Shown: piece after piece, positions 2,442 through 6,017 of the stretch | Layout of the letters: the number at the start of each line of letters is the position of its first letter | Position numbering within the stretch: position 1 is the stretch's first letter | UHGV virus genome: UHGV-0108399 | Reading direction: 5' to 3' (one strand) | From: a virus | Length of the DNA stretch: 34,947 nt | Position numbers and translations under genes: made by a program | Notes under the pieces: generated by a model | Database searches by the model: none | Told to the model about the DNA's origin: nothing | Seen by the model: the letters and a program-made list of their open reading frames with translations, nothing else

Positions 2442-3089
2442 TCACCCCTGCGGCGGTTCTGGCAGCGGCATCCAGTGTGATGGTATCCACGACGCACCAG
2501 GTATTACCCACCCATCATTAGCGTCAGGATGCCCCGGGATGTAAGTCGCCCATTTCATTCGCCAGTCACCTTTCCTGTCAAACTCCCTGGCAACAAGAAC
2601 GGCTGTTTTGGTATCCGGCATTCGCTCACTACAGCTTATCCAACCATCCGGAGTTACCGGATAGTTGCCAGCCAGCTCGTTCAACTTGTAAGTCTGGCTT
2701 ACAGGTTCGGCACCATGAAGCATGGCGGCACGGCAGGCATTCCAACCATCAACATAATCAAACGTATTGCCATCGTCTGGCTCGATTTCATCCGGCACTA
2801 CCGGCGCTGGTTGGGCGGTGACGTTGGAAAAGGCAGCACGCAACCCTGTCTTAATTTCCTCTACCTCATCAGCGCCTGGCGATGAATCTGACAGTGCGTG
2901 ATGGAATGCGTAAGCCATGTCGTCGTTGATTTCTACAGGCACACTATCAGCTTTGCGACGCTCCTGTAGCTCGCGCAGAGCCGCTGCAACATAATGACTA
3001 TTGTGCTGGTCAGCCCACAGAATGAGCCGAATCAACGTTGCATTTGAAACGTATTCGTCTGTTAGTTTGCTATTGGTAAAAATGGTCAT
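2442..3089 (-). CDS. DUF551-domain protein (Eaa-like early accessory protein)
   Basis: 215 aa; C-terminal W-rich region (WISCSERMPD ... WRMKW ... WMPLPEPP) resembles the DUF551 signature of lambdoid Eaa proteins; start overlaps the stop of the upstream gene (ATGA). Confidence 0.6.
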   Translation of the reverse strand: MTIFTNSKLTDEYVSNATLIRLILWADQHNSHYVAAALRELQERRKADSVPVEINDDMAYAFHHALSDSSPGADEVEEIKTGLRAAFSNVTAQPAPVVPDEIEPDDGNTFDYVDGWNACRAAMLHGAEPVSQTYKLNELAGNYPVTPDGWISCSERMPDTKTAVLVAREFDRKGDWRMKWATYIPGHPDANDGWVIPGASWIPSHWMPLPEPPQG

Positions 3090-3601
3090 GCCGCGTTTCC
3101 TTCTTTCTTATTAACAATTACACCGTCATATATTTCATTAAGGTGCCCTCTCAACTCCATGCGCCTTAATGCAGATAACATGTAATCGCATTCAACCTGC
3201 TTATTTCCAGTAAATGGCTTATCGTCAGGATTACCCCAACAGCAATTACCCTTGGGCCACCCATGTACTTTCCGTACTCTTCCGTTAACAACGTGAAGTA
3301 ATCCCCAGCCAGGTGGTAAATCCTCAATTGAAATAATTCCCGGCTCACTAATAAAGAATCGCCAGTCGCCCATTCCAAGAGACGGATTTTTACGAAAACG
3401 CTTTTTTCTATCTGCCAACAAGTCAGCACGAGAACATTTCGCCTCTATCAGGCATGATGCTGAATTTCTGAATCCCATAGCATCTGGCTGTTCTCCGGTA
3501 CTGGTTACAGCTATAAAGCGGTCATGAAAACAAACCTTGAACCCGTTGCGCTTAAGGAACTTGTACGCAATCTGACAGAGTTCGCGGTGTGTTAGCGCCA
3601 T
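3086..3601 (-). CDS. Putative PD-(D/E)xK-fold nuclease-like protein
   Basis: 171 aa; motif GEQPD ... CLIEAK matches the PD-x(n)-(D/E)xK arrangement of restriction-endonuclease-fold nucleases; translationally coupled to flanking genes. Confidence 0.45.
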   Translation of the reverse strand: MALTHRELCQIAYKFLKRNGFKVCFHDRFIAVTSTGEQPDAMGFRNSASCLIEAKCSRADLLADRKKRFRKNPSLGMGDWRFFISEPGIISIEDLPPGWGLLHVVNGRVRKVHGWPKGNCCWGNPDDKPFTGNKQVECDYMLSALRRMELRGHLNEIYDGVIVNKKEGNAA

Positions 3602-3602
3602 A

Positions 3603-3842
3603 TCACTCTCCTTTGATGCCAGTGTTTAGAACCTGACAAGCCTCTTTGAGCACCCAGTCAACAGCGTCTTTCCATGCTCCGGTTTCGGCTGGCGGATTCT
3701 CACGTTTTACCTGCTCATAGAAGCGCACTGCTTGAACCAGTCCTTCCGGCACTACTGGCGATGGCTGTTTAGCTTCTAAATCAGCAATTCTGTCAACCAC
3801 GGCATCGACAAGCTCTCTGTTAGTCATTCTTTTTCCGCTCAC
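3603..3842 (-). CDS. Hypothetical protein (79 aa, GTG start)
   Basis: Track ORF; start overlaps the stop of the upstream gene (GTGA). Confidence 0.45.
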   Translation of the reverse strand: MSGKRMTNRELVDAVVDRIADLEAKQPSPVVPEGLVQAVRFYEQVKRENPPAETGAWKDAVDWVLKEACQVLNTGIKGE

Positions 3843-4342
3843 TGGTTGCCTCCTTTGCGAAGCTCTGCAGCGAAATATACAGCTGCGGAAACAATAGCTG
3901 CATGTCGGTATTCACCATCAGAAAATAAAGAATCTCCCTTAAGTGCATTGACGATACTCTGATGATTTTTTGCCAGCATCTCCACGCCCTGCGCCCGTAC
4001 TTCAGCCAGAAAAGCATCGGTGGCGGGGGTGTCTGATTGCAGAGACTTTGCGCGATAGTCATTCCACCCTCTTGCATACATGTGATTAACTTGCACTCCA
4101 TCTTTTACGCAATATGCCTGCCCTCCACGGTTGATAACCTTGATTTCGTCCATAGCGCCAGACTTCAGCCCCGCATTCTCCGCTGCCAGCGCCGCGCACT
4201 TGGCCTGCGCTTCAGCAAATTTACGCACCAGATATTCAGCGTTTGTTTCGTTAACCTTTAAATCACTTGGGATGCATTTACCTTTCAGGAATCCATCCAT
4301 CTCAATTAGTGACATTTGTTTCATTTCTTCCCACTCCGCCAC
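3839..4342 (-). CDS. Hypothetical protein, coiled-coil N-terminus (possibly Ead/Ea22-like)
   Basis: 167 aa in the early-left accessory region; family assignment is a guess from composition and position. Confidence 0.5.
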
Positions 4343-4485
4343 ATCGCATTCAGATATTTGTTTTGATTTACTGATGGAAAAGAATTTCTCTTAAGCAATT
4401 CCTCTCTCGATGGCATTGGCTTTACGCGTTGGCGAATAATCATTTCTGCCGGAAGAATGCCGGGATTGTATGCAAGTCCTCTCAT
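4321..4485 (-). CDS. Small hypothetical protein (55 aa, [34 protein letters not shown]...)
   Basis: Internal ATG of track ORF 4321..4635 with GAGGA RBS, located just after the stop of ORF 4496..4789; the upstream part of the track ORF overlaps that gene in another frame. Confidence 0.3.
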
Positions 4486-4495
4486 GGTAAATTCC

Positions 4496-4789
4496 TCAGT
4501 CATTACTGATAGCGCCATAGCGTGAGCGGTAATTACGCAGGCGCGGGTCAATTTCAGGGAAGTGGGTATATGTGGCTTTGCGGAATGGTCGGATTGATGT
4601 CTGGTAAATTCGCTCGCGTTCTTCTTTCTCTGCAAGCCATATACAATGGCGAAATTCCTTTTCCTCTTTCGTTTCCTGCGGTAGCGACATTATCCGGTTG
4701 TAGTTTTTCCTGAATTTATCCAGCACCTCCGATACGGAATTGCCGGAACAGCGGCGCGCGTCATCCGCACCATACAGAGGCGCTGGCAT
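4496..4789 (-). CDS. Hypothetical protein, 97 aa; possible Abc2-like anti-RecBCD protein
   Basis: Strong RBS AGGAGAAAATC-ATG; lies immediately downstream of the recombination module (ssb, SSAP), the position and size of P22 abc2. Assignment is by synteny and size only. Confidence 0.5.
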
Positions 4790-4802
4790 GATTTTCTCCT
4801 GA

Positions 4803-5309
4803 TTAAATTGCGTGAATAGCGTGACGAGGGAAGGGGAGAGTTACTGGTGCAAAGGGTATATCGTCGTCAAAATCCATCGGAGGTTCGTTGTGTTGTGCTG
4901 GTGATGATTGCTGCTGTGGCTTCTGTGATTGCCTGCTGGCTGCTTGTTGTTTGCTGTCGCCAATGCCGCCAAGCATTTGCATCACGCCATTAATTCCGAC
5001 ATGAACCTCGGTTGTGTAACGGTCTTGCCCTGACTGGTCTTTCCACTTTCTGGTTCTCAGCATTCCCTCGAAATAAATCTGATCACCTTTTTTCACATAC
5101 TGCCCCACGACCTCAGCCAGTTTCCCGGATACAGCAACACGATGCCATTCAGTCAATTCCTTTTGCTCGCCAGTATTTTTATCTCGCCATTGTTCTGACG
5201 TGGCTATTGTCAGGTTAGCGAACGCTGTTCCTGATGGTGAGTATCGAACTTCCGGGTCTTGTCCTACCCGACCAAGGATAATCACCTTATTTACGCCTCT
5301 GCTTGCCAT
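4803..5309 (-). CDS. ssb: Single-stranded DNA-binding protein (SSB) with 15-aa extension after the DDDIPF tip
   Basis: OB-fold N-terminus ([36 protein letters not shown]), Q/S-rich linker, conserved [11 protein letters not shown] followed by [15 protein letters not shown] before the stop. Confidence 0.85.
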
Positions 5310-6017
5310 TTATGCCGCCTGTTTTAGTTCGTTAACTCTGATGTTCATTACCTGAACGCATTTAGCCTGCGCCTCCTCGTTGCCAGCCATTAATTGCCAG
5401 TCACGCTGATAACGCTCGATGAGTTTTTTCTTGTCAGTTTCTGTTGACGCATAATCGCTGAAGTCTTTCAGGATTTGTTCGCAGTCAACCGATGGAGATT
5501 TCTGGTTGGTATTTTCTGGTGATGGTTTGTTATCTGATGCTGGGATTGCCCATCCCGGCAGCGATGGAGGGAGCCAGCAAAATCCTGTTCCATCCTTCAG
5601 TTTTGCCCTGTGCCACCCCTGCTTTTTATCGAGAGATGTTTGTGCGAAACCTTCCTCAAGGTTATACAGATACCGACCGATTCCCCACTGAACGGCAGCA
5701 CGCTTCATTGCACCTGAACGACCACCTTTGACGGCTTCTACCTGCGTGTTTTCAGCAGCATCCCATTTGGTTACCCATTCGGAATCAATCTTGATTGATA
5801 TGCCGCATTCAACTCCGCCGTTGTTGGGAATATCGCGGTATTCATTGCGCCATCCTGCTTTGCCGCAAACATCGTCCAGGCGTTTCATGATTGCCCTGTT
5901 CGTGACATAAGCCAGCACCATAGCCCACACCTTTCCATCGCGTGTTTTACCGCTTTGCTGTATTCGCCATTCGATATCTTCAGGGCTGAATGGCTCATCG
6001 AATTTGTTCAAATCCAT
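5310..6017 (-). CDS. Rad52/22-family single-strand annealing recombinase (SSAP)
   Basis: 235 aa; conserved core (VECGISIKIDSEWVTKWDAAEN ... AMKRAAVQWGIGRYLYNL) resembles the Rad52/22 phage recombinase family; sits between kil/cIII and ssb where lambda has bet and P22 has erf. Confidence 0.65.
   Translation of the reverse strand: MDLNKFDEPFSPEDIEWRIQQSGKTRDGKVWAMVLAYVTNRAIMKRLDDVCGKAGWRNEYRDIPNNGGVECGISIKIDSEWVTKWDAAENTQVEAVKGGRSGAMKRAAVQWGIGRYLYNLEEGFAQTSLDKKQGWHRAKLKDGTGFCWLPPSLPGWAIPASDNKPSPENTNQKSPSVDCEQILKDFSDYASTETDKKKLIERYQRDWQLMAGNEEAQAKCVQVMNIRVNELKQAA

What the first reader, a model, noticed from the sequence alone, without database searches (positions are those of the whole stretch)
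4803..4850. SSB whose conserved C-terminal DDDIPF tip is followed by a 15-residue extension
The SSB ORF continues beyond the near-universal [11 protein letters not shown] terminus for 15 more residues ([15 protein letters not shown]) before a stop lying 14 nt from the next gene's ATG. In bacterial SSBs the terminal acidic tip is the docking site for partner proteins (established knowledge). A masked tip could change which host proteins are recruited to ssDNA, or it could be a recent stop-loss mutation or a sequencing error.
Basis: seen in the sequence. Interest (0 to 1): 0.5.

Follow-up and report, generated by a model that had tools for sequence, protein, structure and literature searches.

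The report
Phage SSB with capped docking tip
A prophage single-stranded-DNA-binding protein carries a conserved 15-residue tail after the normally terminal docking tip; the tail is shared by many temperate phages and IncN-type plasmids, so it is a real, selected and apparently unstudied feature rather than an error.

Summary
The ssb ORF (4803..5309, minus strand, 168 aa) reads ...[26 protein letters not shown].

It is neither a sequencing error nor a recent stop-loss:
- The same junction lies inside annotated ssb genes in 297 of 5426 complete E. coli genomes.
- It occurs in phages HK75, mEp235, mEpX2, epsilon34 and ECP1, in prophages of at least eight enterobacterial genera and Proteus, and in 87 mostly IncN-type conjugative plasmids.
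- It was absent from 80 SSB loci taken from species-representative genomes.

The extension is almost always 15 residues. It is as conserved as the OB fold (0.82 versus 0.40 identity for the linker) and changes mostly synonymously, so the peptide is under purifying selection. AlphaFold predicts it to be disordered.

Among close relatives, every SSB that ends at IPF has a homing-type endonuclease gene directly downstream. The Sf6-type HNH cassette sits exactly between the IPF codon and the extension, which then becomes the endonuclease's own C-terminus.

Function is inferred, not shown. Capping the terminal Phe should block canonical host-partner docking, and the tail may be a new docking or regulatory motif. 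I found no published description.

The parts
4803..5309 (-). ssb gene, 168 aa plus stop
   Evidence: ORF list. Pfam PF00436 SSB at E=1.6e-36 on residues 6-104. phrog_44. PDB SSB chains align to residues 1-153.
4971..5309 (-). OB-fold DNA-binding/tetramerisation core (residues 1-113)
   Evidence: AF2 model gives confident beta strands over residues 8-113. Alignment to E. coli-type SSB structures.
4884..4970 (-). Disordered Q/S/P-rich linker (residues 114-142)
   Evidence: pLDDT below 50. Mean pairwise identity is only 0.40 among 137 extension-bearing homologues.
4851..4883 (-). Canonical acidic SSB-Ct tip, [11 protein letters not shown] (residues 143-153), here internal
   Evidence: Read from the sequence. 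Mean pairwise identity 0.95.
4806..4850 (-). 15-residue post-tip extension [15 protein letters not shown] (residues 154-168)
   Evidence: Conserved motif [AS]P[VIAL][TG]L[PQ][FY][PS][RK]Hx[IV][HY][AVL][IL]. Synonymous changes far outnumber non-synonymous ones. Predicted disordered.
4850..4851 (-). Boundary between the Phe codon (4851-4853) and the first extension codon (GCA, 4848-4850). This is the site where the Sf6/Huey-type HNH cassette is inserted in related phages
   Evidence: DNA alignments of the window against Huey, Sf6, CurroJimenez and IMG/VR loci.
4803..4805 (-). TAA stop codon of ssb
4790..4802 (-). 13-nt spacer TCAGGAGAAAATC carrying the Shine-Dalgarno sequence of abc2
   Evidence: The same spacer follows the extension in HK75, ECP1, CP-1639, Huey and Sf6.
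4496..4789 (-). abc2 (anti-RecBCD protein 2), downstream member of the Rec module
   Evidence: Pfam PF11043 at E=2.7e-62. phrog_656.
5310..6017 (-). Rad52/Erf-like single-strand annealing protein, upstream member of the Rec module
   Evidence: Pfam PF04098 at E=5e-26. phrog_1097.

Best explanation
The 15 codons are a genuine, translated and selectively maintained C-terminal short linear motif. I call it a post-tip cap. It characterises a lineage of SSBs encoded by mobile elements: the recombination (Rec) modules of lambdoid and P22-like temperate phages, and IncN-type conjugative plasmids.

Shown here:
- The extension is real, widespread and nearly fixed in length.
- It is disordered in the AF2 model.
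- It is as conserved as the OB fold and evolves mainly by synonymous change.
- It is absent from the sampled species-representative genome SSBs.
- The locus is polymorphic for homing-type endonuclease cassettes. The Sf6/Huey-type HNH cassette consists of a stop codon, an RBS and an ORF without its own stop. It sits exactly between the IPF codon and the extension. That restores a free canonical tip on SSB and hands the extension to the endonuclease as its C-terminus.

Inferred from published SSB biochemistry:
- Partner pockets in ExoI, RecO, chi, PriA and DnaG contact the alpha-carboxylate of the terminal Phe, and a C-terminal GFP fusion abolishes ExoI binding. Making Phe153 internal should therefore weaken or abolish canonical docking of host SSB-interacting proteins.
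- The element's SSB would then coat its ssDNA without recruiting host nucleases or mediators.
- The conserved tail itself (invariant P155, L158, H163 and a hydrophobic C-terminus) probably serves as a new docking or regulatory motif for a partner not yet identified.
For: Presence:
- Sequence and ORF.
- Identical extended SSB in HK75 and mEp235, and the same extension on SSBs of mEpX2, epsilon34, ECP1 and CP-1639.
- 297 of 5426 E. coli genomes carry the junction.
- The exact protein is on at least 1000 contigs.
- About 105 of the 120 best homologues carry a post-tip extension, nearly always 15 residues long. They come from E. coli, Salmonella, Klebsiella, Citrobacter, Enterobacter, Kluyvera, Pluralibacter and Phytobacter.
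- 50 of 80 IMG/VR phage loci carry it, as do 87 plasmids, mostly conjugative IncN-type.
- A Proteus prophage and a Pseudoalteromonas SSB carry variants.

Selection:
- Regional mean identity among 137 unique proteins is OB 0.845, linker 0.396, tip 0.947 and extension 0.824.
- L132 differs from the window by 7 synonymous and 0 non-synonymous changes, and L133 by 5 and 0. Pooled pN/pS is 0.30.
- The IncN extension differs at 13 of 45 nt but at only 2 residues.

Not native to the HNH gene:
- HNH homologues share ...WHKHNKPIYP[DE] and then have unrelated tails.
- The phrog_2340 profile stops at residue 143 of Sf6 gp26.

Restricted to mobile elements:
- 0 of 80 SSB loci from species-representative genomes have the extension.

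Structure:
- Residues 114-168 have pLDDT below 50.

Masking logic:
- PMC7293020 and PMC5872125.
Against: - No binding, genetic or structural test of the extension was possible here, so the masking step is inference.
- Phages with a free tip (Sf6, Huey) and phages with the cap (HK75, mEp235) both exist, sometimes with otherwise identical SSB bodies. The cap is therefore not essential for phage viability.
- The extension is found next to several different recombinase families: Rad52/Erf-like, Sak4-like, one locus with a YqaJ-like exonuclease and one with an RdgC-like protein (the last three named by eye from the ORF translations, not family-scanned). No obvious dedicated partner emerges.
- More distant relatives have the same gene order with IPF* directly before the exonuclease gene and no extension (L160, L162). 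The ancestral state is therefore unresolved.
- The codon statistics come from a 45-nt region and from non-independent sequence pairs.
Confidence: 0.6

Rival explanations
1. Neutral scar. An in-frame deletion removed an HNH endonuclease gene that once lay between ssb and abc2, fusing the last 14-15 HNH codons onto ssb. The tail would then have no function of its own.
For: The 45-bp segment is identical at the 3' end of the HNH genes of Sf6, Huey and CurroJimenez. Deletion chimeras in this region do exist: SSB-HNH fusions P0131 and P0134, and HNH-exonuclease fusions P0144, P0173, P0180 and P0183.
Against: - HNH family members elsewhere end with unrelated tails right after PIYP[DE], and the family profile does not cover the extension.
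- The extension exists in diverged forms where no HNH gene was found next to ssb in the loci examined: IncN plasmids and a Proteus prophage, with mostly synonymous divergence. Klebsiella and other enterobacterial SSBs carry similarly diverged forms, but their gene neighbourhoods were not examined.
- It is as conserved as the OB fold.
- HNH tails mirror the local SSB-extension variants (AIYAI, APITL...HAL), as expected if the HNH gene captured them.
Confidence: 0.05
2. DNA-level element. The 45 bp are conserved as a mosaic module-boundary or linker sequence, as the homing site of the HNH endonuclease, or for translational coupling to the downstream gene. Translation of the segment would be incidental.
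For: - The segment is nearly invariant at the DNA level among E. coli and Salmonella phages whose ssb bodies differ by about 20%.
- It always lies at a junction where abc2, the DnaQ-like exonuclease gene or the HNH gene are swapped.
- Huey differs from the window at 0 of the first 431 nt of ssb but at 8 of the last 25 nt next to the insertion point. This looks like a co-conversion tract.
Against: Across wider divergence the nucleotides change freely while the amino acids, frame and length stay fixed: 7 synonymous and 0 non-synonymous for L132, and 13 nt but only 2 residues for IncN. No promoter-like or terminator-like site was found. This explanation could hold in addition to peptide function, but it cannot replace it.
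Confidence: 0.12
3. The tail is a specific regulatory signal rather than a mask. Three readings are possible: a C-terminal degradation tag (basic-hydrophobic ...RHAIHAI, loosely like the ClpX C-motif-2 RRKKAI of MuA), a beta-clamp-type hydrophobic docking motif (PVTLPF compared with QLSLPL/QLxLF), or a type IV secretion signal in the plasmid copies.
For: The most conserved positions are hydrophobic or aromatic plus R162/H163 and the C-terminal I/L, as expected for a short linear motif. Plasmid SSBs of the F type are translocated through the conjugation channel (PMC8406263). The motif resemblances come from my own recollection and were not tested.
Against: - The invariant first residue is Pro, not the Gln typical of clamp motifs.
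- The resemblance to RRKKAI is weak.
- Phages have no type IV secretion system yet carry the same tail.
- No experiment or complex prediction was possible with the tools available.
Confidence: 0.15
4. Sequencing or assembly error, or a very recent stop-loss mutation private to this genome.
Against: The identical junction is found in 297 complete E. coli genomes, in several independently sequenced phages and on at least 1000 contigs. Diverged copies occur in other genera and in plasmids.
Confidence: 0.01

Closest known systems
E. coli chromosomal SSB (Pfam PF00436; PDB 1EQQ/4MZ9 and relatives)
   Same: OB-fold core, disordered linker and the acidic [11 protein letters not shown] tip are all present. 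Residues 1-153 align end to end with solved SSB chains.
   Different: The tip is not C-terminal, because 15 conserved residues follow the Phe. The linker is short and Q/S-rich rather than G/Q/P-rich. The gene lies in a phage recombination module, not at the housekeeping locus. None of the PDB chains covers residues 154-168.
'SSB-1' of lambdoid Rec modules (Sf6 gp27, ES18 gp48; HK75-class module, Genome Res 2025, PMC12315714)
   Same: Same protein family and same module layout (SAP - SSB - anti-RecBCD). The window has the HK75-type arrangement.
   Different: Sf6 gp27 ends at ...DSDIPF* and is followed by the gp26 endonuclease, which carries the tail. The paper states that these SSBs have not been studied experimentally, and the passages I read do not mention the extension. 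The Sf6 GenBank note on gp26 ('14 contiguous amino acids identical to ... E. coli SSB protein') is the only prior trace I found.
Engineered SSB C-terminal fusions (SSB-C-term-GFP; Dubiel et al. 2020, PMC7293020)
   Same: Residues are appended directly after the terminal Phe. This is the closest experimental analogue of a capped tip.
   Different: The fusion is artificial and bulky, fails to bind ExoI and behaves as a dominant negative. The natural cap is a 15-residue conserved peptide on an accessory SSB that coexists with the host SSB.
HK620 SSB (HkaK) and its Sak4 partner (PMC5928155)
   Same: A phage Rec-module SSB whose C-terminal tail governs interaction with the phage's own annealing protein. 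This is a precedent for private phage SSB-partner contacts.
   Different: It belongs to an unrelated SSB family. Its NDYPPF tip is terminal and there is no post-tip extension.
Free-standing homing endonuclease genes inserted at the 3' end of a host gene (phage intron-less homing; in-frame HEG insertions in fungal mitochondrial genes). Cited from my own knowledge.
   Same: Presence/absence polymorphism at one precise site, two unrelated endonuclease families at the same spot, an AT-rich cassette, and a cluster of substitutions in the flank next to the insertion.
   Different: Here the inserted ORF has no stop codon of its own and reads into the displaced 15 codons of the host gene, and the insertion restores the canonical terminus of the host protein. 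Cleavage and homing were not tested.
Conjugative-plasmid leading-region SSBs (F-type)
   Same: An accessory SSB encoded by a mobile element. The IncN copies sit beside anti-restriction genes.
   Different: Every other plasmid SSB hit in the rows listed aligned to the query only through the tip (residues 1-153), which is consistent with a canonical free tip. I did not translate them. Only the roughly 87 plasmids of the IncN-type lineage carry the extension.

Membership tests
Bacterial SSB family (PF00436) | OB-fold ssDNA-binding core with sequence homology to E. coli SSB | tested here: met
   Pfam E=1.6e-36. PDB phmmer E=2e-59 to 7F2N and 6.6e-58 to 1EQQ. AF2 strands over residues 8-113.
Bacterial SSB family (PF00436) | Disordered linker followed by the acidic D-F-D-D-D-I-P-F motif | tested here: met
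   [11 protein letters not shown] at residues 143-153. Linker pLDDT below 50.
Bacterial SSB family (PF00436) | The acidic tip is the extreme C-terminus, with a free Phe carboxylate for partner docking | tested here: not met
   15 residues follow Phe153. 78 of 80 SSB loci from species-representative genomes end at the tip motif, one more ends in DTPF and one has no tip.
Bacterial SSB family (PF00436) | Homotetramer formation and ssDNA binding | not testable with these tools
   Only a monomer model was produced.
Lambdoid 'HK75-class' Rec module (anti-RecBCD + SSB + SAP, no nuclease) | Contiguous SAP - SSB - Abc2 genes in the early-left operon | tested here: met
   Rad52/Erf-like at 5310..6017, ssb at 4803..5309 and abc2 at 4496..4789. 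99.4% nucleotide identity to HK75 over 701 nt. Classification from PMC12315714.
Homing-endonuclease insertion polymorphism | Endonuclease ORF present or absent at one precise site between otherwise collinear alleles | tested here: met
   Comparison of the window and HK75 with Huey, Sf6 and 15 IMG/VR loci. A second, HNH_3-type cassette lies at the same place in L119 and L136.
Homing-endonuclease insertion polymorphism | Flanking co-conversion or recoded target sequence next to the insertion | tested here: met
   Huey versus window: 0 mismatches in ssb nt 1-431 and 8 mismatches in nt 432-456.
Homing-endonuclease insertion polymorphism | The endonuclease cleaves the empty (extension-fused) allele and is copied into it | not testable with these tools
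   Requires enzyme assays or co-infection crosses.
Homing-endonuclease insertion polymorphism | The Sf6 gp26-type protein is a recognised HNH / His-Me nuclease | tested here: inconclusive
   phrog_2340 'endonuclease' at E=2.6e-47, but no Pfam hit. The HHCDYxKP...WLC..CH..WH motif was seen by eye.
Known C-terminal degron, clamp-binding or T4SS signals | Match to a defined consensus and demonstrated dependence | not tested
   The resemblance is recalled from memory only. No tool was available for peptide-partner prediction.

The most novel reading that the evidence does not exclude
The post-tip cap is a dedicated adaptation of mobile elements. It would turn SSB from the host's recruitment hub into a 'private' or 'stealth' ssDNA coat. 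It would hide phage or plasmid ssDNA from ExoI, RecO, RecQ, PriA and possibly from SSB-sensing defence systems, while offering its own conserved motif to an unidentified partner. This state would be toggled in nature by a homing endonuclease cassette that inserts exactly at the tip|cap boundary and carries the cap away on the nuclease.
Probability: 0.3. Interest if true: 0.8.

Novelty: new variant of a known kind. Interest (0 to 1): 0.6.

Why it matters
The free C-terminal ...DDDIPF of bacterial SSB is a central docking site in bacterial genome maintenance and an antibacterial target. Here is a natural, widespread and selectively maintained SSB in which that tip is capped. It is found in temperate phages and conjugative plasmids but not in the sampled species-representative genome SSBs. 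This suggests that mobile elements tune which proteins reach their ssDNA.

The finding offers three things:
- A ready-made natural allele series: a capped SSB and a free-tip SSB with otherwise identical bodies (the window or HK75 versus Huey).
- A possible design parameter for recombineering SSAP-SSB pairs.
- An unusually precise example of an endonuclease cassette inserting in frame at a motif boundary and capturing the displaced peptide.

Phage SSBs are also triggers of several defence systems, so tail variants may matter for immune sensing.

Tried and rejected
- The genome-contig scan with the SSB profile returned more distant, apparently chromosomal SSBs rather than prophage relatives. I reused it only as a control set.
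- I first suspected that the HNH tail ...HKHNKPIYPDEE was a degenerate duplicate of the ssb tail ...[12 protein letters not shown]. I rejected this because KPIYP[DE] is conserved across the HNH family in unrelated contexts.
- I considered deletion of the HNH gene as the origin of the extension and rejected it (see rival explanations).
- A fuzzy-regex search for extension remnants timed out. A simple identity scan replaced it and found no remnant downstream of the HNH_3 cassette or in relatives that lack the extension.
- AF2 gave no structure for the tail, so no fold search was attempted.
- No promoter-like or terminator-like site lies in 4400-5500.
- Literature searches for the peptide strings found nothing. 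Searches on phage or prophage SSB tails found no description of a post-tip extension.
- I could not retrieve the T7 gp2.5 'penultimate Phe' experiment that I recalled, so I do not rely on it.
- Retron-Eco8 sensing of phage SSB does not depend on the C-tail, so that link was dropped.
- The 50%-cluster representative search mostly returned frameshifted or fragmentary representatives. It was useful only for showing a few other, unrelated short post-tip extensions.

Full report
**1. The observation**

The minus-strand ORF 4803..5309 encodes a 168-residue protein: MASRGVNKV...[30 protein letters not shown].
- Codons 154-168 occupy 4806..4850 and the TAA stop occupies 4803..4805.
- A 13-nt spacer (TCAGGAGAAAATC, 4790..4802) precedes the ATG of the next gene.
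- The finding's coordinates are exact. The '14 nt' is a one-base counting difference.
- The protein is a bona fide SSB. Pfam PF00436 matches at E=1.6e-36. Solved E. coli-type SSB chains align to residues 1-153 at E=1e-58 to 1e-59. AF2 builds a confident OB fold.

**2. Genomic context**

The window is a P22-like/lambdoid prophage. It encodes integrase, repressor, O-like initiator, primase-helicase, terminase, portal, coat and DNA-transfer proteins.

ssb lies in the early-left recombination module:
- Upstream is a Rad52/Erf-like annealing protein (5310..6017).
- Downstream is abc2, an anti-RecBCD gene (4496..4789).
- This is the 'HK75-class' Rec module of a 2025 survey, which states that these SSBs have never been studied experimentally (PMC12315714).
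- The 701-nt region is 99.4% identical to phage HK75.

**3. Not an error and not recent**

- The same extended SSB is encoded by HK75 and mEp235. The same 15-residue extension is attached to diverged SSB bodies in epsilon34, ECP1 and CP-1639.
- The tip+extension junction lies inside annotated ssb genes in 297 of 5426 complete E. coli genomes.
- The exact protein is recorded on at least 1000 contigs.
- About 105 of the 120 best homologues in a 5.8-billion-protein collection carry a post-tip extension, nearly always 15 residues long. They come from E. coli, Salmonella, Klebsiella spp., Citrobacter, Enterobacter, Kluyvera, Pluralibacter and Phytobacter.
- 50 of 80 related IMG/VR phage loci carry it.
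- It also occurs on the SSB of conjugative IncN-type plasmids, for example pTR4 (...[23 protein letters not shown]). There are 87 such plasmids, and in the two loci examined the gene sits beside anti-restriction genes.
- A Proteus prophage carries APIGLPYPRHAIYVI. A Pseudoalteromonas SSB has a related form, APIGLQYPALLSVM.
- By contrast, none of 80 SSB loci from species-representative genomes has an extension. Of these, 78 end at the tip motif, one ends in DTPF and one has no tip.

**4. The peptide is under selection**

Among 137 unique extension-bearing proteins, mean pairwise identity by region is:

| Region | Mean pairwise identity |
|---|---|
| OB core | 0.845 |
| Linker | 0.396 |
| Tip | 0.947 |
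| Extension | 0.824 |

- P155, L158 and H163 are (near-)invariant.
- Positions 156, 160, 165 and 168 take only conservative substitutions (V/I/A/L, F/Y, I/V, I/L/V).
- At the codon level, L132 differs from the window by 7 synonymous and 0 non-synonymous changes. L133 differs by 5 and 0, and L153 by 5 and 1. Pooled pN/pS over 17 distinct extension sequences is 0.30.
- The IncN copy differs at 13 of 45 nucleotides but at only 2 residues.
- The pairs are not independent and the region is short. Even so, frame, length and residues are held while nucleotides drift. This argues for constraint on the peptide rather than only on the DNA.
- AF2 gives pLDDT below 50 for residues 114-168, so the tail behaves as part of the disordered C-terminus, that is, as a short linear motif.

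**5. What the IPF-ending relatives reveal**

Phages Huey and Sf6 have SSBs that stop at ...IPF. In both, the next gene is an endonuclease whose last residues are ...[22 protein letters not shown].
- DNA alignments show the 45-bp segment CCAGTAACTCTCCCCTTCCCTCGTCACGCTATTCACGCAATTTAA at the 3' end of this gene. It is followed by the same abc2 or exonuclease junction as in the window.
- In Salmonella-type copies the reading is ...PIYPDE-APVTLPF..., so all 15 codons including the Ala are retained.

The tail is not native to the endonuclease family.
- Homologues elsewhere share the core up to ...WHKHNKPIYP[DE] and then have unrelated endings such as EGLEVA, EDLKAA and EDNQANTPSNPDLTQ.
- The PHROG family profile ends at residue 143 of Sf6 gp26.
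- The HNH-borne tails mirror local SSB-extension variants (...AIYAI; APITL...HAL).

So the cassette (stop codon + RBS + an ORF lacking its own stop) is inserted exactly between the Phe codon and the extension.
- Among the close relatives in the IMG/VR sample (about 66% identity or more), every IPF-terminal SSB except L145 and L147 (65-66% identical) has an endonuclease gene directly downstream.
- In eleven loci this is the Sf6/Huey type. In two loci (L119, L136) it is an unrelated AT-rich HNH_3-type gene that has replaced the extension altogether.
- Huey's ssb is identical to the window's over nt 1-431 and differs at 8 positions within nt 432-456, immediately next to the insertion. This pattern is typical of co-conversion around homing endonuclease genes.
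- In an IMG/VR-wide scan for the extension-coding pattern, the peptide ended an SSB in 65 of 80 cases and this HNH protein in 15. It ended no other protein.
- More distant relatives (L160, L162) have IPF* directly followed by the exonuclease gene's RBS. They differ from the extended arrangement by exactly the 45 nt. The extension therefore behaves as a discrete 15-codon module, and its polarity (gain or loss) at deep nodes is unresolved.

**6. Mechanism**

Shown: the points in sections 3 to 5.

Inferred: in E. coli SSB the partner pockets of DnaG, ExoI, RecO, chi and PriA share a basic residue that pairs with the carboxylate of the terminal Phe (PMC5872125).
[quoted passage not shown] Insertions within the linker do not (PMC7293020).
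- A 15-residue cap should therefore weaken or abolish canonical docking.
- The element's SSB would then coat ssDNA without recruiting host nucleases and mediators. This fits its company: anti-RecBCD Abc2 in phages and anti-restriction genes in IncN plasmids.
- The high conservation of the tail itself suggests that it is more than a blocker and probably binds something.
- No partner stands out. The tail occurs next to Rad52/Erf-like and Sak4-like recombinases, and in single loci next to a YqaJ-like exonuclease and an RdgC-like protein. The last three were named by eye from the ORF translations and were not family-scanned. It occurs with or without the DnaQ-like exonuclease.
- Free-tip and capped alleles with otherwise identical bodies coexist, so the cap is advantageous but dispensable.

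**7. Rivals**

- A neutral HNH-deletion scar is contradicted by sections 4 and 5.
- A purely DNA-level element (module linker, homing site or coupling) may contribute to the near-identity of the 45 bp among E. coli and Salmonella phages. It cannot explain synonymous-only divergence elsewhere.
- Degron, clamp-motif or secretion-signal readings are resemblances from memory and remain untested. The secretion signal is unlikely because phages share the tail.
- Error or recent stop-loss is excluded.

**8. Comparison with what is known, and novelty**

The protein is an SSB-family member in every tested respect except the defining terminal position of the tip.
- I found no paper describing a post-tip extension.
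- The only trace is the Sf6 GenBank note that gp26 shares 14 contiguous residues with 'E. coli SSB protein'.
- I rate it a new variant of a known kind. The feature is well supported as real and selected. Its function is a testable inference.

**9. Verdict**

The finding is confirmed and upgraded from 'possible artefact' to a conserved, mobile-element-specific capped-tip SSB with an associated endonuclease-cassette polymorphism. Interest is 0.6. The extension contradicts the usual assumption that the SSB tip must be terminal, and it offers natural allele pairs for direct tests. Its mechanism remains unproven.

Noticed in passing
L003 2069-2536 (Huey), L004 2075-2554 (Sf6 gp26), L005 875-1354; insertion point corresponds to window 4850|4851: An endonuclease cassette without its own stop codon is inserted exactly between the SSB tip and the extension. 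It reads into the 15 displaced codons. The last 25 nt of ssb next to it are recoded (8 mismatches, against 0 in the preceding 431 nt).
   Followed up: yes
L119 2734-3231 and L136 2188-2709: A second, unrelated AT-rich HNH_3-type homing endonuclease gene (PF13392 plus zf-His_Me_endon) lies immediately after an IPF-terminal ssb at the same locus. The extension segment is absent there and abc2 has a different 5' region.
   Followed up: partly
L002 2107-2655 (mEp235), L008 1807-2355 (epsilon34), many IMG/VR loci: A DnaQ-like 3'-5' exonuclease gene (PF16473, Rv2179c-like) is present or absent between the stop codon of the extended ssb and abc2, always with the junction ...GCAATTTAA GGACTTACATG. In L160 and L162 the same gene follows IPF* directly, so those arrangements differ by exactly the 45-nt extension.
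   Followed up: partly
L288 2005-2538 (pTR4, NC_019163.1), L289 2001-2531: IncN-type conjugative plasmids encode an SSB with an E. coli-like Gly-rich linker and the same kind of extension ([15 protein letters not shown]). In these two loci the gene sits next to SprT-like, ArdA-like and ArdR genes. 87 plasmids match the 3' end.
   Followed up: partly
P0131, P0134, P0144, P0173, P0180, P0183: Chimeric proteins fuse an SSB N-terminus to the HNH C-terminal half, or the HNH N-terminus to the DnaQ-like exonuclease. They indicate recurrent deletions within this three-gene region.
   Followed up: no
P0236, P0270, P0279, P0307, P0233, P0229: Other SSB cluster representatives carry different short post-tip extensions, for example MGLGYDTARSAIYAL, SNYELRSVI, RQYQHRQLY and AQHMKHTFI. 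Several end in a hydrophobic or aromatic residue. Capped tips may therefore be more general than this one family.
   Followed up: no
L139 1984-2511, L145 1984-2511 and the same region of L147: A 175-aa ORF (MASRGVVELYASGMSIPQVS... in L145) lies directly upstream of ssb and overlaps its start; in L139 it sits between the annealing-protein gene and ssb. It may be another inserted gene. I did not run a family search on it.
   Followed up: no
window 4324-4485 (-), 3839-4342 (-), 3086-3601 (-), 2442-3089 (-): Downstream of abc2 lie a 54-aa ORF (phrog_1117; the corresponding HK75 gene is annotated DUF2737) and several early-left ORFs of unknown function (phrog_614, phrog_9263, phrog_12449). This is ordinary for such prophages.
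   Followed up: no
P0001: The representative of a 588-member Salmonella cluster ends ...LPFPRHAI, which is 12 residues and lacks the final HAI. It is a naturally truncated form of the extension.
   Followed up: no
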